Positions 28,755 through 48,973 of a stretch of 64,000 nucleotides of DNA are shown here, piece by piece (the stretch's first letter is position 1; every line of letters starts with the position of its first letter). Both the position numbers and the translations under genes were made by a program. This DNA is from a virus (taxonomy: Duplodnaviria; Caudoviricetes). The DNA is taken from IMG/VR virus record IMGVR_UViG_3300021091_000001, positions 32,001 through 96,000 of that record; one strand, written 5' to 3'. The notes beneath the pieces were generated by a model that ran no database searches, had not been told where the DNA came from, and was given only the letters and a program-made list of their open reading frames with translations.

Positions 28755-29018
28755 ATGAGTAGACCCCTATGGTTTAATGATGCTTTATGTGTAGGAAAAA
28801 CTAATATGTTTTTTCCTCGTTACAACGAAAGACCTACCGCAAGAAAAAAGAGAGAACAGAAAGCAATACAAATATGTTTGTCTTGTCCTGTCAAAGAACC
28901 TTGTAGACAATATGCTAGAACACATTCTGAATATGGAGTTTGGGGAGCAGAGACAGAATACCAAAGACAGCTTGCTGGATATATCCCTGTTAAAATTTCT
29001 ATAAGGAACGTTTATTAA
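28755..29018 (+). CDS. whiB: WhiB-family transcription factor
   Basis: Cys pattern LC..MFF..IC..CPVKEPC and GVWGA turn. Confidence 0.88.
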   Translation: MSRPLWFNDALCVGKTNMFFPRYNERPTARKKREQKAIQICLSCPVKEPCRQYARTHSEYGVWGAETEYQRQLAGYIPVKISIRNVY

Positions 29019-33011: not shown

Positions 33012-33686
33012 ATGCCCTCCTATTCTGACAATGATGATGATCTTTTTGAAGAATCCACAAATTCTTCGACCGATTCATCTTCATTTCATGATTTATTTGC
33101 TCACTCCAATTACTCTTCTGATACTTTTTCTAATTCTTTTGTAGAATCCACAAAAGATATACTTTCACCCAAGTCTATTGACTCTGATCAATTTCGTTAT
33201 CGTACCGGTATCGTTACTTCTTTCTATGAAGTTTGCAATCGGTTTTCGTTCGCAAATGATAATTTTTTAAGAGTTGAGTATGATTATCTCAACTCTATTT
33301 CTAACAATCATTTTAGCAAATTGCTTTATTTTGCTTTCTTAGAAGAAAGTATTATCAAACGCTTTTCTATTCAGAACTTTTTACGTGTTGTTATTGAAAC
33401 TGATAATAGCAAAGTATTTAAAGAAGCAGCAGAGCAACTTAAAATAAATGTCGATGACTTTTTTATTAGAGTTTATTTTGGTTCTATTTATAAACTTCTT
33501 AATCACGCAATAGACCGAAATATTGCTATATATGAAAAGCTTTGTACAGAACTTCAGAGACCACCAATGCAAGCTATTCTTGATAAGAATTATGATTCAC
33601 TAGATATTACTTTTGAATCACCTTCTTCTTATATTTTGAGAAGCTTTGATTCTATTAAAGAGTCTCTTGGTTTTAAAACTTTCTAG
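33012..33686 (+). CDS. Hypothetical protein
   Basis: 224-aa ORF, Ser/Asp-rich N-terminus. Confidence 0.75.
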   Translation: MPSYSDNDDDLFEESTNSSTDSSSFHDLFAHSNYSSDTFSNSFVESTKDILSPKSIDSDQFRYRTGIVTSFYEVCNRFSFANDNFLRVEYDYLNSISNNHFSKLLYFAFLEESIIKRFSIQNFLRVVIETDNSKVFKEAAEQLKINVDDFFIRVYFGSIYKLLNHAIDRNIAIYEKLCTELQRPPMQAILDKNYDSLDITFESPSSYILRSFDSIKESLGFKTF

Positions 33687-33698
33687 GAGGAGATATAA

Positions 33699-34094
33699 TT
33701 GTATCCTGAAAAGATTCCCAATTCTTTGACACCTTTGAATACTTTCAAGTTCAACTTGGAATCTTCACGTGATGTTAAAAAACAACTAGAGTCTCAAATC
33801 GCAAGTCTCGATGAACGTATTGAAAAGATCGTTGATCATTTTACAATCCAAGACATGCCGATTATACGTTTTATTCTTAATGTTTCTGAAGAACGTGAAG
33901 AACTTAAAAAAGTTTCTAGGGCATTGGATAGAATAGCAGATCTTATTCACGTTAAAAATGAACTACTTCCAAAACTAGAGGTAATCAAAATAGCGGAAAA
34001 AGATCCCAATTGGTTTGCATGGACTTTTGGTGATTTTGATTCTGATATTGATTCTGAATTACAAAACTTTACGGACGGAAATTTTGATGACTGA
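33699..34094 (+). CDS. Coiled-coil hypothetical protein
   Basis: AGGAGG RBS, TTG start; overlaps the E2-like gene start. Confidence 0.7.
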   Translation: MYPEKIPNSLTPLNTFKFNLESSRDVKKQLESQIASLDERIEKIVDHFTIQDMPIIRFILNVSEEREELKKVSRALDRIADLIHVKNELLPKLEVIKIAEKDPNWFAWTFGDFDSDIDSELQNFTDGNFDD

Positions 34095-35907
34095 TAATTT
34101 TAATTATACTCTTCTTTCTAAAGAAGACGGCACTTATGCTCTTCGGTCTGTTGTAACTTCTTTTGGCCTTGACCATGTGACTGACAAAGATATTGTATCT
34201 TTTTATACTACTTTTTCTCAATATGCTTCTTTTGACACTGGTCTTTTGCCTTTAGATGGTACTGGCATTCTTGCCATTCGCAATGCTGGTCCACATACTC
34301 AAGTTGTTGCTCAACATGCTCCTGGATTGTATTATATAAATTGGGGTAGTTTTGAAGGCGACAAGCAAGCTAAGGCATACTATGTCGCTCAACCTTATCG
34401 CATAATTATTGGCGACTTTAGAGATGGTAATCTTTTAGGCGCTAGAATGTTTTATTCTCCTGTGCCAATCACCTCTCCTCAAAATCAGCTCTATCATGTT
34501 AACCTTCCCAATATTAATTGCAAAGGTTATCGCGGCAATGCTGTAGGCTGGATTTGTCTTTATCATAAAGATGATTGGTCTCATCTTCCATTTAACGAAA
34601 AAGTATCACGTTTCATTGAACGTTGTTCTGGCGTAGAAACATACAACGATGCAAATATGAACGAGACAGATGGTCCTCGTTTCTATGATTCTTGCGGATA
34701 TCCTTCTTATATTACTGATCCCGTTCTTTGGCAAAAGAAGTCAGAGGAAGAGGGATATCAATGGACTTTAGATTCTTCTGTTTGGATTCCAGTAAAAGTT
34801 ACTGGAATTGATAATCAGGGTTGCCATAATCCCAAAGGTGAATTACTCACTTTGGGAATGGCTATCTTGGGAAACTATCAAGCTTATTATACAGATACTG
34901 AAATCCCCAAGATGTACAATATTGTTTCTCGTCTTGATTTTACTGTTAAGAACGACAACATAGCTGACTTCTTTAAAAAGTCATTTGCTTCTGCTCCCTC
35001 TATTTGGTCTCACACCCCTAAAGATAATCCTTATGCTTTCACTGTAGAATCTAGAATCAATAATTCTTCAGAAACCCTTCAGTTGAATTTTAATTCTGAT
35101 GAAGAAGATCCCCATAAGGCTGTTTGCAATAATTGTGATGAGGTCTTTGACTATGAAGTAGCTACTATCGATGCGTACGATGAAACTATTTGTCCTAGTT
35201 GCATTAATGATCGTTATGTATACGTAGAATCTGTAGGTAAATATTTTCATTGTGAAGATGAAGATCTTTATTATTCAGAACATGATGATAACTACTACCA
35301 TTCTAAGCACGATGTTTGTTTTCATTGTCCAAATTGTATGGTCACTTATGGTTATTCAGGTACCAGTGAAAAAGCCGTTGAGTATATTCACAATTTAACT
35401 CGTAAAGACAATTATTCTGAATTAATTTGCGCAGTTTGTTTTGATCGAAATATTGAAGAAAATGATCTTTCTTCTACTGAATGTGTTGTATGTAAGAAGA
35501 AAGTTATTACATCTGTTGGATGGAATGATGTTCATCCTACTGTAAGAACCATTGATCATGATGTAGATTCAAATACTTATACTTCTACTTATTCTACATT
35601 TTGTGAAAGTTGTTCTCCTAAGCACTTTGTTTGTCCTTGCGGAAAAGTTAAGTCAGACGATACTGAAGATTTTAATTCTTGTAGTTCCAGTATGATTTAT
35701 TCTGAGTTAGATGCTAATAATAAACTTGTTTTTACGGCTTCTGTTCATCAGTGCTGTGCAAGTTGTCTTTCAGCGCCTATTCTCCAAGATGGAGAACTAG
35801 TAGCTGCTTATGTCCCACCTCCAGAAGTATTTAAGCTTGTCGTCAATAATAAATTGTTTAATTCTACTGGAATTACTGTTATTCAGTCAGAAGATGGTTT
35901 ATTCTGA
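34087..35907 (+). CDS. Prokaryotic E2-like (E2 family D/PRTRC protein B-like) protein with C-terminal CxxC repeats
   Basis: QLYHVNLPNIN..GWICL resembles the E2 HPNI..G.ICL active-site region (Cys codon 34555); several CxxC pairs after it; context. Confidence 0.7.
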   Translation: MTDNFNYTLLSKEDGTYALRSVVTSFGLDHVTDKDIVSFYTTFSQYASFDTGLLPLDGTGILAIRNAGPHTQVVAQHAPGLYYINWGSFEGDKQAKAYYVAQPYRIIIGDFRDGNLLGARMFYSPVPITSPQNQLYHVNLPNINCKGYRGNAVGWICLYHKDDWSHLPFNEKVSRFIERCSGVETYNDANMNETDGPRFYDSCGYPSYITDPVLWQKKSEEEGYQWTLDSSVWIPVKVTGIDNQGCHNPKGELLTLGMAILGNYQAYYTDTEIPKMYNIVSRLDFTVKNDNIADFFKKSFASAPSIWSHTPKDNPYAFTVESRINNSSETLQLNFNSDEEDPHKAVCNNCDEVFDYEVATIDAYDETICPSCINDRYVYVESVGKYFHCEDEDLYYSEHDDNYYHSKHDVCFHCPNCMVTYGYSGTSEKAVEYIHNLTRKDNYSELICAVCFDRNIEENDLSSTECVVCKKKVITSVGWNDVHPTVRTIDHDVDSNTYTSTYSTFCESCSPKHFVCPCGKVKSDDTEDFNSCSSSMIYSELDANNKLVFTASVHQCCASCLSAPILQDGELVAAYVPPPEVFKLVVNNKLFNSTGITVIQSEDGLF

Positions 35908-35930
35908 ATCAACAAAATATTGGAGATTTT

Positions 35931-37625
35931 ATGACTAATCAACAAGAAACAACAAACGTCACCTTAAATGACCTTAATTATTTTTGGACTAAGTCTGGAG
36001 TTCCATGTTTTATGGCAACTCGAGACGATATTCAAGATGTAGTTCAGGCTCTTGGTTTTAATATTTATTATCTTATTTGCAATGTTGCGGAAGATAAAAA
36101 GAATGAAACCACAACTTATGTCAATGGTAAGAGTCAAACAACTACTTCTTATGTCACTAATATGAAGACCAAAATTGTCAAGGTTGTAAACAACTTTGTT
36201 GGTCATTCAATTACTGTTGTAGAAGATGAAGAAATTTATGATTTTACTCCAATACGTGAAATAGGCGAATATAATCTTCCTCCTATTCCTCGCGATATAG
36301 TTACTAAGCTCGATGAGTTCTTTAGACTTGTCGACGCACAGCATGGCACAGAGTCAATTGTCATATTGACCTTTGATCCTAATTTTGAAGATTCCCGTGG
36401 TTGGGGTGTTCTTGTTCCAGAACAGACAAATACTTCTGTTCACTGCAAGTACGACCCAGATAGCATTGTTGATCAAAAACCTGAGCATGTGATGATTGTT
36501 GGATCTGTTCACAGTCATCCCGGCATGCCTGCTTATGCATCTGGTACAGACCATGCTGATCAAGCAGATTTTGATGGCATTCATATTACTTATGGATGGC
36601 AGAAGTCTATTAATAACAATGCAACTCAATATCATATTGAGCTTCAAATGGCTGGATATTCTTGGACTCTTAAGCCAGATGATGTTTTTGAATCATTTGT
36701 TTACAATAAATCTCCCGATCCTCAGGTCGTAGAATGGAGCGAAAAAGTAAAAAAAGCATACCCCCCTCAGGGGGGTTCGGTTTCTCTAGTGGCTCACACA
36801 CCAGCACATTCGCTACATCAGACTCCTCCTCGGGACTTTATTCCAACTGGTATTACTAGTCCTTTATCAAAAGGAACTTCCACTTGGGAATCTACCAATT
36901 CTCCTCGTGTTTCTCAGTTTAATTCTCGTACTCAGAATTATCCTAACCCTCATGATGACGATGACCATATTGTCATAGCAGAAGTTCAAATTGAATCAGG
37001 CGGTTTTGCTTCATGTCCTTCTTGTAATTCTGAAGTGGCTTATTTTATTAATACTGTTCCATTTTACTGCGACGTTTGTGATATGCCTCTTTGTTTTCCT
37101 AATAACGCATATTCTGAGATAATTTCTTCTGCTGAAGAATATCTTAAAGAACGTAATCTTAAATCTAACTGCAATTATTATATTTGGACTAAAGATGATA
37201 ATGATGCAGATTTGTTAATGCGCATTAAAGAAAAAAATTACGTATCTGATTCTTCTGATTACATATCTTTAGACGCTCGTGTCGAAACTCTTGATGAATA
37301 TTATTACGAAGGTTTTTCTCACGAAAGATTAGTTTGTTGTGATCTTCCTATTGAAGAAATTTCTTATTGTACATGTTCTACTCCTGTTTATTATGATGAC
37401 GTCATTTCTTTTGATGTTGCTCATCCCCATAGTGTTTACGATTCAAACGATTCTTGTATAGAATGTGAATTCTATTACTCTAGGAATTGTAAGCCTTATC
37501 TACAAGCCATTGTAGATTTTGCGGCACGTGATCGTGTTATGGACGCTAAAATAACTGAGTGTGAGGACTTTATTCCGTATGAACGTTCTGCTGTCAAATA
37601 CGACTTCGACCGAGATTATTATTAA
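35931..37625 (+). CDS. JAB/MPN+ metallopeptidase (deubiquitinase-like) with Cys-rich C-terminus
   Basis: E(S)IVIL...GSVHSHP..AYASGTD (E..HxH..S..D JAMM motif). Confidence 0.88.
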   Translation: MTNQQETTNVTLNDLNYFWTKSGVPCFMATRDDIQDVVQALGFNIYYLICNVAEDKKNETTTYVNGKSQTTTSYVTNMKTKIVKVVNNFVGHSITVVEDEEIYDFTPIREIGEYNLPPIPRDIVTKLDEFFRLVDAQHGTESIVILTFDPNFEDSRGWGVLVPEQTNTSVHCKYDPDSIVDQKPEHVMIVGSVHSHPGMPAYASGTDHADQADFDGIHITYGWQKSINNNATQYHIELQMAGYSWTLKPDDVFESFVYNKSPDPQVVEWSEKVKKAYPPQGGSVSLVAHTPAHSLHQTPPRDFIPTGITSPLSKGTSTWESTNSPRVSQFNSRTQNYPNPHDDDDHIVIAEVQIESGGFASCPSCNSEVAYFINTVPFYCDVCDMPLCFPNNAYSEIISSAEEYLKERNLKSNCNYYIWTKDDNDADLLMRIKEKNYVSDSSDYISLDARVETLDEYYYEGFSHERLVCCDLPIEEISYCTCSTPVYYDDVISFDVAHPHSVYDSNDSCIECEFYYSRNCKPYLQAIVDFAARDRVMDAKITECEDFIPYERSAVKYDFDRDYY

Positions 37626-37645
37626 GACAAAATATAGGAACTGTT

Positions 37646-38392
37646 ATGGAAACTAAAAGAGTTGTATTGGTTGGAGCCGGAGGCATAGGCACTTGGCTTG
37701 CTCCTGGTGTTGTTCGTTTACTTGAGTGGAAGTATCCTGGTTCTGCTTTTATTATCGTCGATGGTGACAATTTTGAGCAGAAAAATTTAGAGCGTCAGTC
37801 TTTTACACAAATGGGAAACAAGGCTTCTGTTAAAGCATTAGAACTTTCTTCTCAGTTTACAAATACTCTTGTTATTCCAGTCCCTAAATGGGTTGTTTCT
37901 GACGATCATCCAGAGACAGATGATAATTCTAACAAGATCAAAGCTTCTCAACTTCTTGTTGAAGGAGATATTGTTCTTGCTGTTGTTGACAATTTTTCTG
38001 CACGTAAAATTCTTTTTGACGCTGCATCTAAATTAGACAACGTTGATGTTTTAACTGGTGGAAATGATGACGCTTTATATGGAAGTATTTATCATTACCG
38101 TCGTAGAAATGGTATAGACATTACTTCTCATCCAGTTGAAACACACCCAGAATACCAGAATCCGCCGGATCGTAATCCCGGTGAGATGTCTTGTCAGGAG
38201 CGAGCAGAAATAGAAGGTGGCACTCAGATTCTTGCCACTAATATGGCTGTTGCTTCTTATATTCTTGGTCGAATACAACACACTATAGTGTTCGACCAAA
38301 ATCCAGAACAGTCCGAGATTTATTTTGATCTAGGGCTTGGCATGGCACAACCCTACAACCGTATGGTTGAAAACGCATCACTTAATGTATAG
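37646..38392 (+). CDS. ThiF/E1-like ubiquitin-activating enzyme
   Basis: VLVGAGGIG, DGD.FE.KNL.RQ, NKA, AVVDN..AR; candidate catalytic Cys in SCQE; no zinc CxxC pairs. Confidence 0.9.
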   Translation: METKRVVLVGAGGIGTWLAPGVVRLLEWKYPGSAFIIVDGDNFEQKNLERQSFTQMGNKASVKALELSSQFTNTLVIPVPKWVVSDDHPETDDNSNKIKASQLLVEGDIVLAVVDNFSARKILFDAASKLDNVDVLTGGNDDALYGSIYHYRRRNGIDITSHPVETHPEYQNPPDRNPGEMSCQERAEIEGGTQILATNMAVASYILGRIQHTIVFDQNPEQSEIYFDLGLGMAQPYNRMVENASLNV

Positions 38393-38403
38393 GAGAAATC
38401 AAA

Positions 38404-38655
38404 ATGGAAATGAATTCCATGCAGAACAATACAAATGCAGCACAGGGCGTAGCTAATCTTCGCTATGGTGTTTACAACCAGCCAGCTCCAGTTTCTGGCA
38501 AGACTGTTGGCGAAGTTCGTCAGCAGTTCTCCAAGCTTTGGGGAATCAGCGCAGACGCCATTGCCTACAAGGGCAAAGACAAGCTTGACGAAAATTATAT
38601 CATTCAGCCCGGCGATAACGTTGAATTCCATCGCCGTGCTGGTGAAAAGGGCTGA
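38404..38655 (+). CDS. Ubiquitin-like (beta-grasp) protein ending in Gly
   Basis: 83 aa, GKTVGEVR..LDENYIIQPGDNVEFHRRAGEKG*; AGGAG RBS; directly after E1. Confidence 0.82.
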   Translation: MEMNSMQNNTNAAQGVANLRYGVYNQPAPVSGKTVGEVRQQFSKLWGISADAIAYKGKDKLDENYIIQPGDNVEFHRRAGEKG

Positions 38656-38670
38656 TTAAGCTCTACATTC

Positions 38671-38764
38671 GTGGGGGGGGATTTCGGCTTAAATGCCGTT
38701 CAATCTAACATTATAGATGATTTTAATCTGAAAAATGTTAGAATGGTCCCCCCCCACTTTTTTT
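38671..38764 (+). terminator. Branched hairpin with G8/C8 closing stem and U-tract
   Basis: 11-bp stem 38671-38681/38747-38757 enclosing two internal hairpins, followed by a T run. Confidence 0.5.
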
Positions 38765-38804
38765 ATAAAGCCTACAGTTAGTTACTTTATATGAAGAGGA
38801 CTTT

Positions 38805-40406
38805 ATGCTCCACCAACAAATCCAACTTGGTATTCCTGCCATATGGATTAAAACTACAGACCCTTTCCGTATAGAAGAAAATATTTTATCTATTTCAAAA
38901 AGAGATTTTTTTTCTATAACAAAGGATGGTTTTTCACATTATTCTGATAATGTTTGGAAACCCATTCTAGTATCTATTTCTAACCCTGAAGATTCTTCTT
39001 CTCCAATAATTAAAACGACCACAGATTTTTCTGTGTCTTTTGATTTTCTTTTTAATTCTCCTGACTTTAAAGATCGTCCAAAAACGTTTATTAACCACCT
39101 AGTTAGTGATCCAAATTCTTTTGCAATGATGTTTGCTCCTTTTATTGCAAATCTTCATTCTGATTATCGCAATTCTTTTAAAAAAGACGATCTTTCTTTA
39201 CTTCCTCTTCAAATAATTGTCATATCTTCTGCCAATCCTCCAGAAGACATTGCTCATCTTTTCTATGTTCACGAAGATACTTATCCTTCTTTGGAAGAAC
39301 TTACTGATATTCTCTATCATATGCATTCTTCTACAAATGGAGAAATAGTAGATTCTGCCAAAACAAAAGATATAGCTCGTTCTGGTCTTGGTTTAACAGA
39401 GTCTAAGTTTATTAACTTGTCTTTGCTTTCTGTTTTAGAATGCGGAACTATCGATTCTGCTTACATTTATTCTGCTAAAATGGCAGATGTCAAAAAGAAT
39501 GGCATTCTTGAAATTCTTAAGCCTAAAATAACATTTGATAATATTGGCGGTCTTGATAACATTAAGAATGTTATTTTTAAAAATCTTTATTTTTGGAATA
39601 ATCCCCAAGAAGCTGAAAAATTTGGTATTCAACCAATAAGACGTTTGCTTACCGTTGGTATTCCTGGCACTGGTAAGTCTGCCATTTGCGAAGCAACTGC
39701 AAATGCTTTAGGTCTAGATCTCGCTCGCACTGGTGTCAGTCAAGTAATGAATTCTTTCATTGGCCAGTCAGAAGCTAATATGCGAGCAGTTTTTCAGCAG
39801 ATAAAAGCAATGGCTCCACTTTGCGTTTGGATTGACGAGTTCGGTCGTGATATGTCTGGTGGCCAGTCGTCTAGTCACGTAGACGGTGGCACCACAGACC
39901 GTGTTCACGGCGAGTTCTTGACAGGCTTGCAGGAACTTCCTGACAATGTCTTTTTGATGTGTGCTGCAAATCAACTCAATCACCTTAGGCCAGAGATGCT
40001 TCGCGCAGAACGCTTTGATAAGATTTTCTTTGTTGGTTTGCCTTCATTTGAAGAGCGAATTGAAATTATCAAAATTTATCTTCCGGAAAATAATTATGAT
40101 TATCAAGCCGTTGCTCATGCTACCAAGTATTTTACTGGTGCAGAAATTAAATCTCTTATCAAAGAAGTGAACTTTAATGTAGTATCTACTTATCATCGCT
40201 CTGTTACTGATAAGGATATTATTTCTTACGCTCCTAGCATAAGGAATATTCTTTGGAATAAAGAACGCGACATGATTAAAGAGTTATATCGCTACGCCTA
40301 TGAGAACTGGGATTGGGCTTCTAATTTCCAATACAATGAAATAGATGATATACTTGGTAAAGCTCCAGCAAAGTCACAAGTTTCGTCTTGGGACGTAAAG
40401 ATATAA
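38805..40406 (+). CDS. AAA+ ATPase (Ycf46/SpoVK/Cdc48-like), degenerate N-terminal module
   Basis: IGGLDNIK, GIPGTGKS, VWIDE, AAN..LRPEMLRAERFD. Confidence 0.92.
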   Translation: MLHQQIQLGIPAIWIKTTDPFRIEENILSISKRDFFSITKDGFSHYSDNVWKPILVSISNPEDSSSPIIKTTTDFSVSFDFLFNSPDFKDRPKTFINHLVSDPNSFAMMFAPFIANLHSDYRNSFKKDDLSLLPLQIIVISSANPPEDIAHLFYVHEDTYPSLEELTDILYHMHSSTNGEIVDSAKTKDIARSGLGLTESKFINLSLLSVLECGTIDSAYIYSAKMADVKKNGILEILKPKITFDNIGGLDNIKNVIFKNLYFWNNPQEAEKFGIQPIRRLLTVGIPGTGKSAICEATANALGLDLARTGVSQVMNSFIGQSEANMRAVFQQIKAMAPLCVWIDEFGRDMSGGQSSSHVDGGTTDRVHGEFLTGLQELPDNVFLMCAANQLNHLRPEMLRAERFDKIFFVGLPSFEERIEIIKIYLPENNYDYQAVAHATKYFTGAEIKSLIKEVNFNVVSTYHRSVTDKDIISYAPSIRNILWNKERDMIKELYRYAYENWDWASNFQYNEIDDILGKAPAKSQVSSWDVKI

Positions 40407-40415
40407 AGGAATATT

Positions 40416-41033
40416 ATGTCTATTGAAGAAAATGTCGAAGAATTTCTCTCTACTTTAGAACCAGATCAGCAAGACGATAAGCCAAAGTATGCAAATACTC
40501 TTTATAAGAAATGGTTTAAGTCTAAGACTCAAAGTGGTTTTGTTTCTATTCGTCCTTGGTTTCAAGGAATGAAATTTTCTATTGATATTGGAAAAACCAA
40601 TTCATCAGGAAAACTAGAAAGTAACACAAACTGTTTTGTTGATGCAATAGATTTTGCCGCTTATCTTCGTAGTATTGTTACAAACACAGCTTCTTTTAAT
40701 TTTCCCGTAAATGAAAGAATGGGATTAACAACTCCTGAATCTTTTGTTTCTTATGGTGGAACCACTTTACAATCTGGTCAGCAAATCAGCAGAATTTTTA
40801 AATGCCAACACTGGCAAAGTGGTGATAATGTAGATTCTTCTGCTTTTATTTGGAAAGCTGGCCATTTTAAAGCTAGGAAATCAGATACTGGAGCTTTCAT
40901 TCCTGATATGAAATCACCATTGTCTGTAGATTCGATTAAAGTTACTCGTCAAGATATTGTTAGTATTTCATATCTTTTGGATATGTCTTTGATTTCTTAT
41001 GTAACTAATAACACAGAATGGTATGATGCCTAG
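40416..41033 (+). CDS. Hypothetical protein
   Basis: AAGGA RBS, 205 aa. Confidence 0.8.
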   Translation: MSIEENVEEFLSTLEPDQQDDKPKYANTLYKKWFKSKTQSGFVSIRPWFQGMKFSIDIGKTNSSGKLESNTNCFVDAIDFAAYLRSIVTNTASFNFPVNERMGLTTPESFVSYGGTTLQSGQQISRIFKCQHWQSGDNVDSSAFIWKAGHFKARKSDTGAFIPDMKSPLSVDSIKVTRQDIVSISYLLDMSLISYVTNNTEWYDA

Positions 41034-41416
41034 TGGAAGAAAACATATTTGATTCAGCTGATACTTTTGATTCTTTAAAGAATAATCTTCATGAACTTGT
41101 TATTGCTTTAGCTTCTAGAGTTGAAGAACGTCTGCAAGATTTGGATGAAGCAATTCAAAAGCTTGAAAAACAGATTGCTACTCTTATTCTTGGTTTTGGA
41201 GAACAAGCTGTTAATATGGAAGGACTTCTTGCCCAGATTAAATTCTCCAGTCCTGAAGCCCAAAAAGAGTTCATGAATACTATTTCTGCTAGTAGAAAAC
41301 AAATGCTTGAGACAATGAAGGAAGGCGCCAGTGGTTTATTGGCTGGAGAAAGTCCAGGAATTGCCTCAGCCGTTGAAGACTTGGTTAACGAAAAGTTATC
41401 TGACTCAGCCGATTAA
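41033..41416 (+). CDS. Coiled-coil hypothetical protein
   Basis: TAGTG overlap. Confidence 0.7.
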   Translation: MEENIFDSADTFDSLKNNLHELVIALASRVEERLQDLDEAIQKLEKQIATLILGFGEQAVNMEGLLAQIKFSSPEAQKEFMNTISASRKQMLETMKEGASGLLAGESPGIASAVEDLVNEKLSDSAD

Positions 41417-41608: not shown

Positions 41609-42250
41609 ATGATATCTATATCTAATTTTTCTGACACTCCATATATCACTAATCACATTAATGATATATTTGACAATATGGATGATTCTTTATATCCCCT
41701 TAATGCTTATTTTGCACATTTTTTTCGGATTAAAGATCTTAACTCACTAAAATCAGTTCTTTCTCATACTCCTAGTTCTCAGTTTACTGTAGAAACATAT
41801 AGATCATTAGAATCTAATCTTCTTTCTATCGAAAGAGAACTTGCTTATATTTATATTAAAACTACTTTTTTTGATTCAGATAGAATGTATTTTTATCTAG
41901 GTTCTAAGAATTCTTTCAAACTAAATTATTTTTCTGATTTTTTACCCAGTGCTTTTAATCATCTTTTTAATCATTGGATTCACAATAGTTTTGTTAAAGT
42001 AATGGGCCCTGGACACGGTTCTTATATAGTATTTGATCTTTCAAAGCCTTTTACTCTTCCTACTGTAGAATCATCTTCTTTTCAAGATAGTATAACTTCC
42101 TTCATAAACTCATACAACCAAATGAAAAGTGACAATCAGTATCTTACTGAATTGAATTCTTACAAAGATGGAGTTATACATTCTCTTCAGTTGAAGATTG
42201 AAGAATTACAAAATCAAAATTTTATAACATCTCAAATCACTTGGAGATAA
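41609..42250 (+). CDS. Hypothetical protein, C-terminal coiled coil
   Basis: GGAG RBS. Confidence 0.75.
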   Translation: MISISNFSDTPYITNHINDIFDNMDDSLYPLNAYFAHFFRIKDLNSLKSVLSHTPSSQFTVETYRSLESNLLSIERELAYIYIKTTFFDSDRMYFYLGSKNSFKLNYFSDFLPSAFNHLFNHWIHNSFVKVMGPGHGSYIVFDLSKPFTLPTVESSSFQDSITSFINSYNQMKSDNQYLTELNSYKDGVIHSLQLKIEELQNQNFITSQITWR

Positions 42251-42251
42251 T

Positions 42252-42803
42252 ATGGATACTACTTCTTATACTGATTCTCAAGCAGCTGTTCTCGCCGCTC
42301 AGTTCCCAATTGTTTGCAAATATTATTCTAATAATATTCCTTTAAATCCTAGTTCTCATTATCAGTATGCCAACAACCCTGGCATACGTTGTTGTTCTAG
42401 TTCTCAACGTTTAGCAGTTGCTTCTCCAACAAAACCTCCTTTATTTTGTGATATGTCTCCTGTCACAATGTCTACCTGCATATTTTATTCTTCTGATTTT
42501 AAAATTCTTAAAAAGATTAAAGCTTCAAATCAGACAGTTTATTTCATGACTCGTTATAGAACTGAGCAAGAGTCTTATATTTATAAGCTTTATGGCGAAG
42601 ATGCTGTTGTGTATCTTGAGTTAAATTACTCTGATATTAAATCTATCGATGATAATATCGATACAGAAGCTATTAGAGTATTTGAAGATTTTATTGTTAA
42701 TGAACTTGGTTTTACTTTTGATCTTCAAGAAATTGATGAAGAATGTCTTGATCGCAAGCTACAAAATACAACCAATTCATTTTTTAAAGCAATTTTAACC
42801 TAG
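42252..42803 (+). CDS. Cys-containing hypothetical protein
   Basis: Coupled to the upstream ORF; five Cys in the N-terminal half. Confidence 0.75.
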   Translation: MDTTSYTDSQAAVLAAQFPIVCKYYSNNIPLNPSSHYQYANNPGIRCCSSSQRLAVASPTKPPLFCDMSPVTMSTCIFYSSDFKILKKIKASNQTVYFMTRYRTEQESYIYKLYGEDAVVYLELNYSDIKSIDDNIDTEAIRVFEDFIVNELGFTFDLQEIDEECLDRKLQNTTNSFFKAILT

Positions 42804-42812
42804 GATTATTTT

Positions 42813-43994
42813 ATGATCTATGACTATAATTTGTTTACTCCAGAAAATGTTTTTACCTTAACTCTTCGCGGAAATCCTCAGTTTATAGAATCATCTATGG
42901 TTGCCAAGTATACTTGTTCTATATACGACATGAAAAAAAGATATGATTCTTTGCATCCTTCCATGACACTTCGGGATCAAGACCATCTGTATCCTTTAGC
43001 TGTTAGGTATATATCTCCTATGCGAGACTTCTACGTCATAGAACGTCCTCCGTTTCTTTTGGATGAGGTAGATTTTTCTACAGCTAAATCTTACAGGCAA
43101 AGAAAAACTCCGAAACTACTCAATAATAGATCTATTTGGATTCCTTGGACTATTGCCATTATTGCCATAAGAAATGGCGTGTATTCTTTTTATCTGTTTT
43201 TCAATGATGGTCCGCTTCAATCTATAGACGATAAGATTGTTTCAGCTTATCTTCCCAACATTGGCCATGGCGGCCAAGTATGTATGGGCCAAGATTCCAG
43301 TACAGCAATGGATAAATTTCAAGAAACACTTTCTGTTACAGAAATGTATAAGTCTTTGTTTAACATGTATTTTTCTGGTTGGAACACTGACATTTGGAAT
43401 TCTAGTTACAATATCAAATATTTTGATGATAACGGTATTCTTAAGAGAATTCAGTCTCTTAAATCATCTCCTAAAGATTTTTACGAAATTTTAGTGTATG
43501 GTCGATCTAGTGTTGCTAAGTATTTTAAATCTTTTTTGTTTCTTCTTTCTCATCTTACTTTACAAGAACATTTAGATTATGTTACTCATATTAAAAACAA
43601 TTCTCATAATGTTTTCAAGTTGTCTAAAGTTATTTCTCAACAACTTCCTGGTGGTTTAATTCTAGAGGAAGTTATTGTCAGAAAAATAGACAGATCTTTT
43701 TCCAAACAACAAATTGGTTATACAAATAGTCTTTTTTCTGAACATTTTGAATCTAGTCAAGTATCTAAAAGCATAACTCTTTATGTGAATAATATCCCAT
43801 TTTTTGATGGCCAACCGCCTTTGCGATACGATAATGATAAAGTTTATTCTATGGTTAGCGATCCTAAAGCAATTGCTGAGATTTATCAGCAGATGATGGC
43901 TCAATACAAAAATTCTGATTCTTCCTTTGTTCAAAACATTCATATGAATTATTCTGATCTTCACAGCGTTGTTGTTCAAGAAGGAGCGTTATGA
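42813..43994 (+). CDS. E2-like (family D) paralog 2
   Basis: WIPWTIAII..FFNDGPL..YLPNIGHGGQVCMG (Cys codon 43281)..FSGWNTD. Confidence 0.62.
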   Translation: MIYDYNLFTPENVFTLTLRGNPQFIESSMVAKYTCSIYDMKKRYDSLHPSMTLRDQDHLYPLAVRYISPMRDFYVIERPPFLLDEVDFSTAKSYRQRKTPKLLNNRSIWIPWTIAIIAIRNGVYSFYLFFNDGPLQSIDDKIVSAYLPNIGHGGQVCMGQDSSTAMDKFQETLSVTEMYKSLFNMYFSGWNTDIWNSSYNIKYFDDNGILKRIQSLKSSPKDFYEILVYGRSSVAKYFKSFLFLLSHLTLQEHLDYVTHIKNNSHNVFKLSKVISQQLPGGLILEEVIVRKIDRSFSKQQIGYTNSLFSEHFESSQVSKSITLYVNNIPFFDGQPPLRYDNDKVYSMVSDPKAIAEIYQQMMAQYKNSDSSFVQNIHMNYSDLHSVVVQEGAL

Positions 43995-45217
43995 TAACCC
44001 CATCTACTTACATTTTTGCTGACGATATCTCTTATCCATATGCAGAACTAACTACTGGCAATACAAATCTACAATACTCTTATGCTAATACTCAACGTTC
44101 TGAAGCTTCTAGGTTCATGAATTTAAAGTTAAGTAGCAATTATTCTATCAAAGAATCTACAATTTCTTATGAAAACGATTCTTACATTGATATATTTGAC
44201 GACTATCTTTCCATACTCAATACAGAGAACCAATATAATGACTTGATATTTCCTGGTTTAAGATACGCTTCTGAGGGAATATTAATCTTTGAAAGACCTC
44301 CTACTTACAAAGTTTTAGACATTAGTAGAGACTATCAGGCGAACATAAATTCTCATACTTTGCAATCGGAATATTATTTGCCAATTCCTTGGCAGGTATA
44401 CATTGCAATGTACAATCCTGCAACCATGCGACTAGTTGCAGTAAAAATGTTTTTTACATCTACTTCATTGTTTGATTTTAATCAAGCTGTTTTTGCTCCT
44501 CCTTTGTATAATTTTTATTCTAACGGAATGTTATGTAGACCATTCTTTGAGTCTATAGACGATATTGAGAAATATCCTAAAACATATTCTGGCGTTATTG
44601 CTTCTGCTTACGATTGGATCTGGAACAGTGGTTTCAACTTTGATATTACTGAAAATATTTCTCAATTTCTTCAAAGCAAAAATTTCTATTCTTTTGAACC
44701 ATATTTGACAAGCGCTTCTGCTAAAGCTTCTTACCATCTACTTGTTAATAATCCCATTCATGCAATTCTCAACAGATTAGATTTTATCTATGCTAAGAAT
44801 TTCTACAATTGTTGGCAGAATATAGCTCTTAAAGATATTTCTTCTGTTTCTTGGTCACCATATACATATTCGGATTTTTATTATCAAGAGCGAGATACTA
44901 TTTCTGACTATGCACTAGATATTTATTTGGATCAAACAGGAAACTCTTATTGTTCCTGTGACTGTGAGAGTTGTTTAGAATACTCGCAATGTTGTACTGA
45001 CGAAGATAATCTTCATCTTTCGGATATACATCATGACCCTTTATACATTAAAATTGTTGACAATTTAGTGAATAAAGATCCTAAACCTCTTCAAAAAGCT
45101 TATAAAGATTCTGTTTTGTTTTTAGCAAAAAACAAGATTTCTATGAAAAGTGCTTTTAAATCTAAGTCTTATGAAGTTTTTGCTAAAATGTCTGAAAAAA
45201 TACAGATTACTTCTTGA
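43991..45217 (+). CDS. E2-like (family D) paralog 3
   Basis: PIPWQVYIA..KMFF..PPLYNFYSNGMLC (Cys codon 44534)..WNSGFNFD. Confidence 0.62.
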   Translation: MITPSTYIFADDISYPYAELTTGNTNLQYSYANTQRSEASRFMNLKLSSNYSIKESTISYENDSYIDIFDDYLSILNTENQYNDLIFPGLRYASEGILIFERPPTYKVLDISRDYQANINSHTLQSEYYLPIPWQVYIAMYNPATMRLVAVKMFFTSTSLFDFNQAVFAPPLYNFYSNGMLCRPFFESIDDIEKYPKTYSGVIASAYDWIWNSGFNFDITENISQFLQSKNFYSFEPYLTSASAKASYHLLVNNPIHAILNRLDFIYAKNFYNCWQNIALKDISSVSWSPYTYSDFYYQERDTISDYALDIYLDQTGNSYCSCDCESCLEYSQCCTDEDNLHLSDIHHDPLYIKIVDNLVNKDPKPLQKAYKDSVLFLAKNKISMKSAFKSKSYEVFAKMSEKIQITS

Positions 45218-45824: not shown

Positions 45825-46262
45825 ATGATTGATCCACGTAACAACGTAATATTAAGCGCTGGTATCGTAACTGATCCAGAACTTGTAGCTAACGGAAACA
45901 TTGCAAAGTTTCGCATTGCAGTAGACTTTGCTGGTTCTGAAAAGGGTGCAGGAGTATCTTCTGGATATTTCGATATTGTTTACTATCTTAAGGATGGTTC
46001 TGATTTTGCATCAAAGAATGCTTCCTTTGTCGCTAAGCAGATTGCTGAAGGCAAAATGAAGAAAGGTTCTCAGATTCAGCTTGTTGGCCGTCTTGTTCAA
46101 GAAAGATGGCAGCAAGAGGGTCAGGGTCGTTCAAAGGTTGTTGTTGTAGCAGAAGCTGTTACCTACGCGACTTCTGCATATTCAAAGTCTGATTCTAATT
46201 CCGGTTCATCTGAGGCTCCTAAGCAGGCTTCTTCTAGCTATTCAGTTCCGGATGAGTTCTGA
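45825..46262 (+). CDS. ssb: Single-stranded DNA-binding protein
   Basis: NNVILSAGIVTDPE..AKFRIAV..KGSQIQLVGRL..ERW..RSKVVVVAE; acidic tail VPDEF. Confidence 0.9.
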   Translation: MIDPRNNVILSAGIVTDPELVANGNIAKFRIAVDFAGSEKGAGVSSGYFDIVYYLKDGSDFASKNASFVAKQIAEGKMKKGSQIQLVGRLVQERWQQEGQGRSKVVVVAEAVTYATSAYSKSDSNSGSSEAPKQASSSYSVPDEF

Positions 46263-48361: not shown

Positions 48362-48973
48362 ATGACTACTATAATTGGAGTACAAGGAGAAGGTTTCAGC
48401 ATTATATGTACTGATTCAAGAATATCTTCAATCGACGAGGGCGGATTTGCCTCTCAAATTACAACCCTAGGAAGAAATACTTCTAAAGTAGCTTCCAATG
48501 GAAAGTACCTTCTTGGCGCTGCTGGAGATGTAAGAGCTATTAATATTTTACATCATGCTTTTGTTCCACCCCCACCCACTCCTGGTCTTTCTGGTTCTAA
48601 GCTTGACCATTTCTTTACCACTAAGTTTATTCCATCTCTTAGAGAATGCTTTGAAAAGCAAGGATATGCTGCTCCTGAACGAGATACCTCTGCTCACATA
48701 GCTGAACATGGTTCTACAATAATATGTTCTTTACACGGCAATATATATGTTGTGGAAGGAGATTATTCGTGGACCTCTGATGTAAATGGTTTATATGCTT
48801 TGGGAACAGGTAGCGCTTACGCATTAGGTGCAATGCAGATTCTTTTTGCTGGCTCTAAAAAAATGGATACGCCAGCAGTTGTTAAAAAACTTTGTTTAAA
48901 AGCAATAGCAGTAGCTGCAAAATTTGACCCTTATACTGGTTCTCCTTATTATTGTTATATACAGGAACAATAA
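48362..48973 (+). CDS. Proteasome beta/HslV-like Ntn threonine protease
   Basis: M-TTIIGV, TDSR, SKV, GAAG, ALGTGS, DPYTG. Confidence 0.88.
   Translation: MTTIIGVQGEGFSIICTDSRISSIDEGGFASQITTLGRNTSKVASNGKYLLGAAGDVRAINILHHAFVPPPPTPGLSGSKLDHFFTTKFIPSLRECFEKQGYAAPERDTSAHIAEHGSTIICSLHGNIYVVEGDYSWTSDVNGLYALGTGSAYALGAMQILFAGSKKMDTPAVVKKLCLKAIAVAAKFDPYTGSPYYCYIQEQ

What the first reader, a model, noticed from the sequence alone, without database searches (positions are those of the whole stretch)
34087..40406. Phage-encoded ubiquitin-like conjugation operon: E2 - JAB - E1 - Ubl - AAA+
Five contiguous co-oriented genes. (1) An E2-like protein with LPNI..GWIC and a CxxC-rich tail. (2) A JAMM peptidase with intact E/HSH/S/D. 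(3) A ThiF/E1 with nucleotide-binding motifs and a candidate catalytic Cys. (4) An 83-aa beta-grasp-like protein ending AGEKG, with a free C-terminal Gly needing no processing. (5) An AAA+ ATPase. No thiamine, molybdopterin or cysteine synthesis genes are adjacent, so protein conjugation is more likely than sulfur transfer. Bacterial E1-E2-Ubl-JAB cassettes (PRTRC/Bub-like, Bil) are known in cells, some as anti-phage defence. A complete set carried by a phage, linked to an unfoldase, would be a virus using ubiquitin-like tagging against its host or its defences (inference).
Basis: partly seen in the sequence, partly recalled or inferred. Interest (0 to 1): 0.93.

Follow-up and report, generated by a model that had tools for sequence, protein, structure and literature searches.

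The report
Jumbo phage ubiquitin-like tagging operon
A complete 202-kb lake-water phage carries its own conserved kit for attaching a small ubiquitin-like tag to proteins (activating enzyme, carrier enzyme, trimming protease, tag), next to an unfoldase, which suggests that phages as well as their bacterial hosts use ubiquitin-style tagging.

Summary
All five co-oriented genes exist at the stated coordinates. Pfam confirms JAB, ThiF/E1 and AAA+ above threshold. The 83-aa protein models as a beta-grasp whose best PDB matches are ubiquitin, ISG15 and NEDD8, and it ends in an invariant GEKG-stop.

The E2 call is weaker. No sequence model reaches threshold. Fold and profile evidence places it with Prok-E2_D/PRTRC-B proteins, and Cys157 is invariant.

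The record is a complete phage: direct terminal repeats, CheckV 100%, tail and lysis genes, and WhiB, which points to an actinobacterial host.

The order p131-E2-JAB-E1-Ubl-AAA+-...-two further E2-like paralogs is kept in every one of 49 IMG/VR contigs with enough flank. E1 and Ubl are the best-conserved genes in the block. A conserved terminator follows the Ubl gene, so the AAA+ is a neighbour and not clearly part of the same operon.

The phage genome has no rhodanese, PP-loop enzyme or ParB. Protein conjugation is therefore the best reading (about 0.7). Targets are unknown and no biochemistry exists.

I found no paper describing a phage-encoded E1-E2-Ubl-JAB set. This scan has noted the same cassette on three other genomes, and other phage Ubl kits elsewhere.

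The parts
33012..33686 (+). p224, a conserved upstream gene of unknown function. It may be the first gene of the transcription unit, since it starts just after tRNA-Ile.
   Evidence: ORF. Homologue at the same position in most related loci, about 30% identity. No family hit.
33699..34094 (+). p131, a helical, coiled-coil-like protein with an acidic tail. Its stop overlaps the E2 start by 8 nt, so the two are probably translationally coupled.
   Evidence: only weak coiled-coil-type hits. Present directly upstream of the E2-like gene in 45 loci, and also in the distant L013 and L014.
34087..35907 (+). E2-like protein, 606 aa. The N-terminal domain of about 330 aa is Prok-E2_D/PRTRC-B-like and carries the LPN flap and invariant Cys157. 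The C-terminal tail is Cys-rich with several CxxC pairs (predicted zinc ribbons, a possible substrate adaptor).
   Evidence: AF2 pLDDT 81. AFDB Foldseek: PRTRC protein B at E 9e-6 and a UBC core domain protein at E 1.4e-5. ESM Atlas neighbours carry PF14460. VIA-align lists many E2/UBC folds at Z 3-3.5. Family of 204 clusters at 50% identity. C157 invariant.
35931..37625 (+). JAB/JAMM metallopeptidase, 564 aa. The catalytic domain spans about residues 128-250, followed by a Cys-rich C-terminal half.
   Evidence: Pfam Prok-JAB above cut-off. Weak hit to PRTRC_A. E141/H194/H196/S204/D207 invariant. Weak PDB hits to AMSH and RPN11 at the motif.
37646..38392 (+). Minimal single-domain E1 (ThiF/MoeB-type adenylating enzyme), 248 aa, with an invariant crossover-loop Cys183.
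   Evidence: Pfam ThiF E 3.8e-11. Best NCBIfam model is PRTRC_ThiF, but far below its cut-off. Best solved relative is UBA5 at E 0.006. Motifs invariant. Most conserved gene of the block at 72%.
38404..38655 (+). Ubiquitin-like beta-grasp protein, 83 aa. The first ~16 residues are a disordered N-terminus. It ends GEKG-stop, with Gly83 free.
   Evidence: AF2 pLDDT 80. The top 50 Foldseek PDB matches are all ubiquitin-family proteins. C-terminus invariant. 71% mean identity.
38671..38766 (+). GC-rich hairpin (GUGGGGGGGGAU...GUCCCCCCCCAC) followed by a U-tract: a predicted intrinsic terminator or attenuator immediately after the Ubl stop codon.
   Evidence: MFE -45.8 kcal/mol, z = -6.1 against shuffles. 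An equivalent G-run/C-run hairpin plus T-run sits in the same place in most relatives, with different loop sequences.
38805..40406 (+). Classic-clade AAA+ ATPase, 533 aa. The N-domain of about 230 aa is of unknown type, followed by one AAA module and a lid. No HbYX C-terminus.
   Evidence: Pfam AAA E 2e-23. Sub-threshold NCBIfam hits to CDC48, PAN and FtsH. phrog_8638 E 1.5e-65. PADLOC IetA-like. Walker A/B invariant and C-termini listed.
40416..41033 (+). p205, an unknown protein that always follows the AAA+ gene. It is highly conserved for this block (63%).
   Evidence: No family. Atlas neighbours are all unnamed viral clusters.
41033..41416 (+). p127, a conserved unknown protein.
41609..42803 (+). 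p213 and p183, two poorly conserved genes of unknown function lying between the AAA+ group and the E2-like paralogues.
   Evidence: No family hits.
42813..43994 (+). E2-like paralogue A, 393 aa, with ERPPF...WIPWT...LPN-x7-C157. N149 and C157 are invariant.
   Evidence: PF14460 Prok-E2_D below threshold (E 0.0065; E 3e-4 per genome). PRTRC_B E 0.01. hhalign to the E2 family 87%, E 4e-6. Invariant Cys.
43991..45217 (+). E2-like paralogue B, 408 aa, with IPIPWQ...NF-x6-C182. N174 and C182 are invariant.
   Evidence: hhalign to paralogue A 95.7%, E 9e-9. hhalign to the E2 family 95%, E 4e-8. PF14460 E 0.0055 per genome. Invariant Cys.
48362..48973 (+). HslV/proteasome-beta-like Ntn peptidase, 203 aa, starting M-T-T. 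It is loosely linked: same strand, about 10 kb downstream.
   Evidence: phrog_1040 'peptidase HslV family' E 7.8e-23. Best PDB matches are BPH 5ovs, proteasome beta2 and HslV. Found at the same relative position in 4 of 5 near-complete relatives.

Best explanation
The phage makes its own ubiquitin-like protein-tagging pathway during infection.

Shown:
- The genes, folds, catalytic motifs, conservation and synteny described above.

Inferred:
1. The 248-aa ThiF-type E1, probably a dimer, binds ATP and adenylates the free C-terminal Gly83 of the 83-aa Ubl.
2. The Ubl is passed as a thioester to E1 Cys183 and then to Cys157 of the E2-like protein, or directly to the E2.
3. The E2-like protein's own zinc-ribbon tail binds the substrate, so it acts as a combined E2/E3 and links Gly83 to a target lysine.
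4. Two divergent E2-like paralogues, each with a retained Cys, widen the target range.
5. The JAMM peptidase trims the rare precursor forms that carry two extra residues after GEKG. It may also remove or recycle the tag.
6. The neighbouring classic-clade AAA+ ATPase, transcribed after a terminator or attenuator, may engage tagged proteins. An HslV-like peptidase 10 kb downstream might degrade them.

The block lies among replication and host-takeover genes, not virion genes. Targets are therefore more likely to be host proteins or host-defence proteins than structural proteins, but the targets are unknown.
For: Phage origin: 202,043-bp record with direct terminal repeats and CheckV 100%. Tail, virion and endolysin PHROGs in the window. 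Seven tRNAs.

Families: Prok-JAB, ThiF and AAA above Pfam cut-offs.

Ubl: beta-grasp model whose PDB matches are only ubiquitin-family proteins. The terminal Gly is fixed even at 38-40% identity. 4 of 49 copies carry a 2-residue tail after GEKG, which marks the Gly as the functional end.

E2-like fold. Three paralogues are linked by hhalign, and each has an invariant Cys.

All catalytic residues of E1, E2 and JAB are invariant in 34-43 distinct sequences.

E1 and Ubl are the slowest-evolving genes of the block (72% and 71%, against 44-47% for E2 and JAB).

The E2-JAB-E1-Ubl order is kept in 49 IMG/VR contigs and in distant relatives.

No rhodanese and no PP-loop thiolation enzyme in the whole phage genome.
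Against: There is no biochemical or expression evidence; no RNA run was listed.

The E2 assignment fails every curated sequence threshold. It finds nothing by Foldseek in the PDB or Swiss-Prot, and its VIA-align Z of 4.2 or less is not significant on its own.

The spacing from the LPN Asn to Cys157 is 15 residues, against about 8 in canonical E2s (sequence compared with my own knowledge of E2s).

The E1 is a minimal MoeB/ThiF-like enzyme without a UFD or a separate Cys domain. This is the architecture of sulfur-carrier activators.

The tag ends in a single Gly, not Gly-Gly.

The AAA+ lies beyond a terminator, is not always adjacent and has no HbYX docking motif. The HslV-like gene is missing from one relative that keeps the cassette.
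Confidence: 0.68

Rival explanations
1. E2-independent Ubl system. E1, Ubl and JAB work as in archaeal SAMP/UbaA/HvJAMM1 or Thermus TtuB/TtuC. The three 'E2-like' proteins are scaffolds or substrate receptors that never carry a thioester.
For: The E2 call is remote only. The E1 is a minimal ThiF type like the E2-less systems. The active-site loop of the model has low confidence, with pLDDT about 50 at residues 143-160.
Against: The Cys is invariant in all three paralogue families across 34-43 sequences. Fold neighbours are PRTRC-B and UBC-core proteins. The E2-like gene always heads the operon.
Confidence: 0.12
2. Sulfur-carrier pathway. The Ubl is thiocarboxylated by the ThiF-like enzyme and donates sulfur, for example to thiolate the phage's own tRNAs or to make a cofactor.
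For: The E1 resembles ThiF, MoeB and UbaA at similar weak scores. The phage encodes at least 7 tRNAs, including Lys-UUU. The beta-grasp with a terminal Gly is the ThiS/MoaD design.
Against: No rhodanese and no PP-loop ATP_bind_3 enzyme anywhere in the 202-kb genome. No thiamine or molybdopterin genes nearby. The end is GEKG, not GG. The operon includes E2-like proteins with invariant Cys and a JAB.
Confidence: 0.07
3. Counter-defence by interference. The module exists mainly to neutralise host Ubl-based immunity (Bil or type II CBASS-like). The JAB would strip host conjugates, or the phage Ubl/E1/E2 would compete with the host machinery, and there would be no tagging of targets of its own.
For: Bacterial Ubl systems are anti-phage (PMC11601596, PMC10557695). 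The block sits among early and host-takeover genes. The JAB is large, with an extra Cys-rich domain.
Against: A deconjugating role needs only the JAB. Yet E1 and Ubl are the most conserved genes, and the whole four-gene set is retained in all relatives.
Confidence: 0.08
4. The tag is attached to a non-protein acceptor (lipid, nucleic acid or small molecule) or to phage virion proteins during assembly, as an ATG8-like or tail-assembly-like use of a beta-grasp.
For: Lambda-type phages pair a Ubl (TAPI) with a JAB (TAPK) for tail assembly (PMC1779556). Acceptors cannot be read from sequence.
Against: The block is on the opposite strand from, and more than 10 kb away from, the virion and lysis genes. 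The lambda system has no E1 or E2.
Confidence: 0.05

Closest known systems
PRTRC cassette (ParB-related, ThiF-related cassette; NCBIfam TIGR03734-03741) of plasmids and integrative elements; function unknown
   Same: Same part list on a mobile element: a small single-domain ThiF-type E1 of about 245 aa, a Prok-E2_D-type E2 (PRTRC_B) and a JAB (PRTRC_A). PRTRC models are the best NCBIfam hits for E1 and JAB. PRTRC_B proteins are fold neighbours of the E2-like domain. One distant relative has a ParB_N gene 1.5 kb upstream.
   Different: All scores are far below the PRTRC cut-offs. There is no ParB in this genome and no PRTRC_C/D/E hits. The carrier is a lytic-type jumbo phage. E2 and JAB carry long Cys-rich tails. 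There are two extra E2-like paralogues and a fixed AAA+ neighbour.
Bil (BilABCD, bacterial ISG15-like) anti-phage systems
   Same: Four separate genes for Ubl, E2, JAB and E1. The Ubl is conjugated through its C-terminal Gly (PMC11601596 introduction).
   Different: [quoted passage not shown] No PADLOC model other than weak CBASS-type E1-E2 hits matched. Bil is a host defence and this is phage-borne.
Type II CBASS Cap2/Cap3
   Same: ThiF-type E1 chemistry plus a JAB. The weak PADLOC E1-E2 hits fall on the E1.
   Different: Cap2 is an E2-E1 fusion and has no separate Ubl, because the CD-NTase C-terminus is what gets activated. Here the genes are separate and there is a dedicated beta-grasp tag.
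Bub (6E/DUF6527) bacterial ubiquitination-like operons
   Same: A diverged bacterial E1, E2 and Ubl set. A BubCD-BubB-BubA complex appears among the weak structural matches.
   Different: According to the Bub preprint (PMC11601596), BubCD cleaves the BubAB precursor to release the functional Ubl, and the E2 is of the DUF6527 type. Here a separate JAMM peptidase and a Prok-E2_D-like E2 are present.
Archaeal SAMP/UbaA/HvJAMM1 with Cdc48/PAN-proteasome (PMC4895103, PMC4443979)
   Same: Minimal E1, beta-grasp tag and JAMM peptidase. Functional link to classic-clade AAA+ unfoldases and an Ntn peptidase.
   Different: The archaeal system has no E2 and is cellular. Here there are three E2-like proteins, the AAA+ lacks HbYX and the peptidase is HslV-like.
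Viral precedents: lambda/T1 tail-assembly Ubl-JAB pair (PMC1779556) and the Asgard virus Nidhogg E1-like genes (bioRxiv 10.1101/2021.07.29.454249)
   Same: Viruses of prokaryotes that carry single Ubl-pathway parts.
   Different: Neither has a full E1 + E2 + Ubl + JAB set.

Membership tests
JAMM/MPN+ (Pfam Prok-JAB PF14464) | Score above the curated Pfam cut-off | tested here: met
   28 bits against 25, E 2.2e-6.
JAMM/MPN+ (Pfam Prok-JAB PF14464) | Catalytic motif E ... HxH-x7-S-xx-D | tested here: met
   E141, H194, H196, S204 and D207 invariant in 40/40 full-length sequences.
E1-like adenylating enzymes (Pfam ThiF PF00899) | Score above the curated cut-off, plus the nucleotide-binding GxGxxG, Asp, Arg, Lys and Mg-binding Asp motifs | tested here: met
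   43 bits against 28.1. G10/G12/G15, D39, R50, K59 and D115 invariant.
E1-like adenylating enzymes (Pfam ThiF PF00899) | Conserved Cys in the crossover loop able to take a thioester or persulfide | tested here: met
   C183 in GE(M/L)SCQ(E/D)RA is invariant in 38/38 sequences. Whether it is catalytic is not testable here.
Ubiquitin-like beta-grasp modifiers | Beta-grasp fold | tested here: met
   AF2 model with pLDDT 80 and order b-b-a-b-b-b. The top 50 Foldseek PDB matches are all ubiquitin, ISG15, NEDD8 or SUMO, with probability 1.00 and TM by target 0.6-0.7. This is a predicted structure only.
Ubiquitin-like beta-grasp modifiers | Exposed, conserved C-terminal Gly | tested here: met
   GEKG-stop in 118/120 and 45/49 copies. 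Rare 2-residue tails occur. The feature is kept at 38-40% identity.
E2/UBC superfamily, Prok-E2_D (PF14460) | Score above the curated Pfam cut-off | tested here: not met
   The 606-aa protein and 92 family members give no PF14460 hit. The paralogues reach only 17.6 and 13.3 bits against 25.
E2/UBC superfamily, Prok-E2_D (PF14460) | UBC-like fold: beta-meander, then the (H/L)PN flap, then the Cys loop, then a helix | tested here: inconclusive
   In favour: AFDB Foldseek hits to PRTRC protein B (E 9e-6) and a UBC core domain protein (E 1.4e-5, TM by hit 0.66). The Atlas neighbour cluster with PF14460 has TM 0.70/0.68. About 15 of 50 VIA-align rows are E2, UEV or RWD folds, but at Z 3-3.5. The model's element order fits. 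Against: nothing in the PDB or Swiss-Prot by Foldseek.
E2/UBC superfamily, Prok-E2_D (PF14460) | Invariant catalytic Cys downstream of the PN motif | tested here: met
   C157 in 43/43, paralogue A C157 in 34/34 and paralogue B C182 in 34/34. The spacing is longer than in canonical E2s.
PRTRC system | Members pass the NCBIfam equivalog cut-offs (PRTRC_ThiF, PRTRC_A, PRTRC_B) | tested here: not met
   30.9 against 144.75, 16.8 against 101.8, and 11.8 against 131.45.
PRTRC system | Associated ParB-related gene | tested here: not met
   No ParB_N in the 202-kb genome. One is present near the cassette in one distant relative only.
Bil (BilABCD) | [quoted passage not shown] | tested here: not met
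   The E1 is 248 aa with a single ThiF domain. The feature is as described in PMC11601596.
Classic-clade AAA+ unfoldases | AAA module above cut-off with Walker A/B and an aromatic-hydrophobic-Gly pore loop | tested here: met
   83.5 bits against 21.2. GIPGTGKS, WIDEF and FIG present.
Classic-clade AAA+ unfoldases | HbYX C-terminal motif for docking on a proteasome-type peptidase | tested here: not met
   The C-termini are ...VKI...AWKI...TWK and similar, with no penultimate Tyr.
Any Ubl conjugation system | ATP-dependent thioesters and isopeptide conjugates | not testable with these tools
   This needs biochemistry.

The most novel reading that the evidence does not exclude
This group of jumbo phages runs a miniature, virus-encoded ubiquitin-unfoldase-peptidase pathway inside bacteria. 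One E1 and one highly conserved Ubl feed three specialised E2/E3-like enzymes. These mark chosen host proteins, such as defence or takeover targets, for unfolding by the neighbouring AAA+ ATPase and degradation by the phage's HslV-like peptidase. That would make it a viral analogue of the eukaryotic ubiquitin-proteasome system.
Probability: 0.18. Interest if true: 0.92.

Novelty: new variant of a known kind. Interest (0 to 1): 0.78.

Why it matters
Ubiquitin-like conjugation in bacteria is currently described as host immunity against phages (type II CBASS, Bil) or as uncharacterised cargo of plasmids (PRTRC, Bub). A complete E1-E2-Ubl-JAB set that is a fixed, slowly evolving part of a whole lineage of roughly 200-kb phages would show that the virus side uses the same chemistry.

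The lineage is large: 204 clusters at 50% identity, 49 IMG/VR contigs, and 20 or more lake-water metagenomes.

It would also offer a compact system (83-aa tag, 248-aa E1) for studying how E2/E3 specificity arises from fused zinc-ribbon tails and paralogue expansion.

Cultured Bacillus jumbo phages carry a related E2-like/JAB/E1 trio. That makes at least part of the question testable in the laboratory.

Tried and rejected
**Searches that found nothing**
- Nucleotide and tblastn searches of the 50,697 deposited phage genomes with the cassette DNA and the E2-like protein: no match.
- phmmer and profile searches of the PDB with the E2-like protein: only chance zinc-ribbon hits.
- Foldseek of the E2 model against the PDB and Swiss-Prot: nothing.
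- Pfam scans of 52 and 40 family members of the E2-like protein: no E2 family.
- PADLOC: no Bil/ISG15-like or other Ubl system; only weak Cap2-type hits on the E1 and IetA-like hits on the AAA+.

**Readings rejected**
- PRTRC membership: all cut-offs are missed and there is no ParB.
- Sulfur transfer: considered and down-weighted after whole-genome searches for PP-loop and rhodanese domains came back empty while the controls rang.
- Proteasome docking of the AAA+: no HbYX motif.

**Steps that led nowhere**
- Expression evidence: no RNA run was listed. The DNA runs are Logan contigs, so I did not lay reads.
- The search for a Ubl in Bacillus phage vB_BceM_WH1 found none.
- The Atlas look-ups of p205 and the AAA+ N-domain gave only unnamed clusters.
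- The genome search 'relatives' is not available for virus records. Loci from metagenome sources could not be used as handles.
- Both structure-prediction jobs went on the Ubl and the E2 domain, so no complex or JAB model was made.

Full report
**What the window is**

The window is bases 32001-96000 of a 202,043-bp IMG/VR virus record with direct terminal repeats and a CheckV completeness of 100%. It carries:
- seven tRNA genes;
- a phage-type DNA helicase and an S8-type protease;
- on the minus strand from about 50.6 kb, virion, tail-fibre, tape-measure-like and endolysin-type genes.

A WhiB gene lies at window 28770-28970, and WhiB genes sit beside the cassette in relatives. This points to an actinobacterial host. 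Near-identical DNA occurs in 20 or more lake-water metagenome runs.

**The observation**

The five ORFs are as described. The 606-aa reading from the ATG at 34087 is the right one, because orthologues align from that Met. Its start overlaps the stop of the upstream 131-aa gene by 8 nt.

Pfam places three products above their curated cut-offs:
- Prok-JAB, 28 bits against 25;
- ThiF, 43 bits against 28.1;
- AAA, 83.5 bits against 21.2.

In 34-43 distinct sequences the catalytic residues never vary:
- JAB: E141, H194, H196, S204, D207;
- E1: GxGxxG, D39, R50, Q51, K59, D115, C183;
- AAA+: Walker A and Walker B.

**The tag**

The 83-aa protein has no family hit. With a 37-sequence alignment it models at pLDDT 80 as b-b-a-b-b-b behind a disordered 16-residue N-terminus. 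The 50 best Foldseek matches in the PDB are all ubiquitin, ISG15, NEDD8, SUMO or ubiquitin-like domains, with probability 1.00 and TM by target 0.6-0.7.

The C-terminus EFHRRAGEKG is invariant:
- 118 of 120 database homologues and 45 of 49 IMG/VR copies stop exactly after GEKG;
- four copies add two residues, SL or NI;
- orthologues at only 38-40% identity still end G(E/D)KG.

A fixed terminal Gly with occasional short extensions is the signature of a tag that is activated at that Gly. The extensions also give the JAB a processing job.

**The E2-like protein**

This is the weakest link. Several searches found nothing:
- no sequence model matches it or 92 of its relatives;
- profile search of the PDB finds nothing relevant;
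- Foldseek finds nothing in the PDB or Swiss-Prot.

Positive evidence comes from five directions.

1. The AF2 model of residues 1-340 (pLDDT 81) matches AlphaFold-DB clusters named 'PRTRC system protein B' (E 9e-6 and 1.3e-2) and 'UBC core domain-containing protein' (E 1.4e-5, TM by hit 0.66).
2. The ESM Atlas neighbours, by features (0.95) and by structure (TM 0.70/0.68), are mostly viral clusters in which some members carry PF14460 Prok-E2_D.
3. The exhaustive VIA-align search gives only Z of 4.2 or less. About 15 of its 50 rows are E2, UEV or RWD folds, including a CBASS E2 and a Bub complex.
4. Two downstream genes (42813-43994 and 43991-45217) are homologous to each other (hhalign 95.7%, E 9e-9). 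They are also homologous to the 606-aa protein's family (95%, E 4e-8 and 87%, E 4e-6). Both hit PF14460 below threshold in a search of this genome (E 3e-4 and 5.5e-3).
5. The model's order of elements fits the E2 plan: a beta-meander, then LYHVNLPN, then the loop with C157, then a helix. C157 and the equivalent Cys of each paralogue are invariant.

I therefore read it as a divergent Prok-E2_D-like E2 with a long active-site loop. Membership of the Pfam family was tested and was not met.

The C-terminal 270 residues hold at least eight conserved Cys pairs. This tail is absent from short family members of 300-380 aa. It is therefore an accessory, probably zinc-binding, module.

**Conservation and anatomy of the block**

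The E2-like family has 498 members at 90% clustering and 204 clusters at 50% identity. All come from metagenomes or uncultured phages, many on contigs of about 200 kb.

Using the Ubl, I fetched 49 IMG/VR loci and scanned them with HMMs built here. Every locus with enough flank keeps this order: p131, E2-like, JAB, E1, Ubl, AAA+, p205, p127, (variable genes), E2-like A, E2-like B.

Mean identity to the window's proteins:

| Gene | Mean identity |
|---|---|
| E1 | 72% |
| Ubl | 71% |
| p205 | 63% |
| AAA+ | 59% |
| E2 | 47% |
| JAB | 44% |
| E2-like paralogues | 33-35% |

Distant relatives keep E2-like, JAB, (one inserted gene), E1, Ubl. In those the AAA+ may sit two genes further on (L014) or 5 kb upstream (L012).

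Directly after the Ubl stop codon lies a GC-rich hairpin plus U-tract (38671-38766; -45.8 kcal/mol, z -6.1). Most relatives have an equivalent G-run/C-run hairpin and T-run in the same place, with unrelated loops. The four- to six-gene unit ending in the Ubl therefore looks like its own transcription unit or an attenuated one. The AAA+ group is a conserved neighbour.

**Downstream actors**

The AAA+ is of the classic clade. Its best sub-threshold NCBIfam matches are CDC48, PAN and FtsH. It has an aromatic-hydrophobic-Gly pore loop but no HbYX tail.

A 203-aa M-T-T protein at 48362-48973 belongs to phrog_1040, 'peptidase HslV family' (E 7.8e-23). Its best solved relatives are BPH, proteasome beta2 and HslV. 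It lies 10-11 kb downstream on the same strand in 4 of 5 near-complete relatives. It is absent from the fifth, which keeps the cassette. A tag-unfold-degrade pathway is therefore possible, but nothing beyond gene linkage supports it.

**Rivals**

- *Sulfur transfer.* This is disfavoured. Whole-genome searches found no rhodanese and no PP-loop ATP_bind_3 enzyme, while 13-14 control genomes rang. The tag ends GEKG, not GG. E2-like proteins with fixed Cys head the operon.
- *An E2-independent SAMP-like system.* This remains possible, because the E2 call is remote.
- *A pure anti-defence deconjugase role.* This does not explain why E1 and Ubl are the most conserved genes.
- *A tail-assembly role like lambda TAPI/TAPK.* This does not fit the location or the presence of an E1 (PMC1779556).

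**Comparison with known systems**

The nearest system is the PRTRC cassette. PRTRC_ThiF and PRTRC_A are the top NCBIfam hits and PRTRC_B is a fold neighbour. However, every cut-off is missed and the genome has no ParB.

Bil, type II CBASS and Bub share the chemistry but differ in E1 architecture, in gene fusions or in peptidase type (PMC11601596, PMC10557695).

Literature I could search:
- The 2021 comparative overview of 224 jumbo phages mentions no E1, JAB or Ubl (PMC7824862).
- A 2026 review lists ubiquitin signalling for giant eukaryotic viruses but not for jumbo phages (PMC13359090).
- The only viral precedents found were the lambda Ubl-JAB pair and E1-like genes in an Asgard virus.

The paper library lacks most subscription journals, so an existing description cannot be excluded.

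Within this scan, the same cassette was noted on three other genomes, and other phage Ubl kits were followed up before.

**A cultured handle**

tblastn with the E1 finds two isolated Bacillus cereus jumbo phages, vB_BceM_WH1 and Edson, at 27-29% identity. In WH1:
- gp214 matches my E2 HMM (E 1.4e-8);
- gp215 matches my JAB HMM (E 9e-10) and Prok-JAB weakly;
- gp216 is the ThiF, with the same EMSC motif.

No Ubl was found near this trio or anywhere in that genome by profile search.

**Verdict**

The reading as a phage-encoded Ubl conjugation module is supported as far as sequence, fold and comparative evidence can go. The E2 identity, the role of the AAA+ and the targets are inferred. It is best classed as a new, phage-borne variant of the prokaryotic E1-E2-Ubl-JAB kind, closest to but not a member of PRTRC.

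Noticed in passing
window 38671-38766: A very stable GC-rich hairpin with a U-tract lies right after the Ubl stop codon (z -6.1). Most relatives have a hairpin in the same position with different loops. It may be a terminator or attenuator that sets a high ratio of Ubl to downstream genes.
   Followed up: partly
window 42813-45217: Two adjacent genes (393 and 408 aa) are divergent paralogues of the E2-like protein. Each has an invariant Cys. They are syntenic in nearly all relatives.
   Followed up: yes
window 48362-48973: An HslV/proteasome-beta-like Ntn peptidase (phrog_1040) with an M-T-T start. It is syntenic about 10 kb downstream of the Ubl in 4 of 5 near-complete relatives.
   Followed up: partly
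L066 (Bacillus phage vB_BceM_WH1, LC597490.1 181723-184817): A cultured Bacillus cereus jumbo phage, and also phage Edson, carries an E2-like (gp214), JAB (gp215) and ThiF (gp216) trio in the same order. A NADAR gene and a Band-7 gene follow. No recognisable Ubl was found.
   Followed up: partly
L036 and L039 (IMGVR_UViG_3300042868_009074, 267,766 bp): One IMG/VR contig holds two different copies of the whole cassette about 215 kb apart. It may be two related phage genomes joined in assembly.
   Followed up: no
IMG/VR loci L017-L065 (Ubl genes): Four of 49 Ubl genes encode two extra residues (SL or NI) after the otherwise terminal GEKG. These are natural precursor forms that would need trimming.
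   Followed up: partly
window 28770-28970: A WhiB-family gene (51 bits) sits in the early region. A second, weak WhiB-like hit lies elsewhere in the genome. This suggests an actinobacterial host.
   Followed up: partly
window 40416-41033: p205, an unknown protein, always follows the AAA+ gene. At 63% it is more conserved than the AAA+ itself. The only lead is a weak Atlas pointer to Whirly-like ssDNA binders (0.84).
   Followed up: partly
L067 (Butyrivibrio hungatei plasmid pNP144, NZ_CP017832.1 71529-72260): The closest plasmid-borne E1 (31% identity) sits among Rad52, helicase, Pol III delta and SSB genes on a 144-kb plasmid. My HMMs detected no E2-like or JAB gene within 7 kb. The plasmid may be a phage-plasmid.
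   Followed up: partly
window 46252-47001: A uracil-DNA-glycosylase-superfamily protein (Pfam UDG, E 6e-11) lies between the E2-like paralogues and the HslV-like gene.
   Followed up: no
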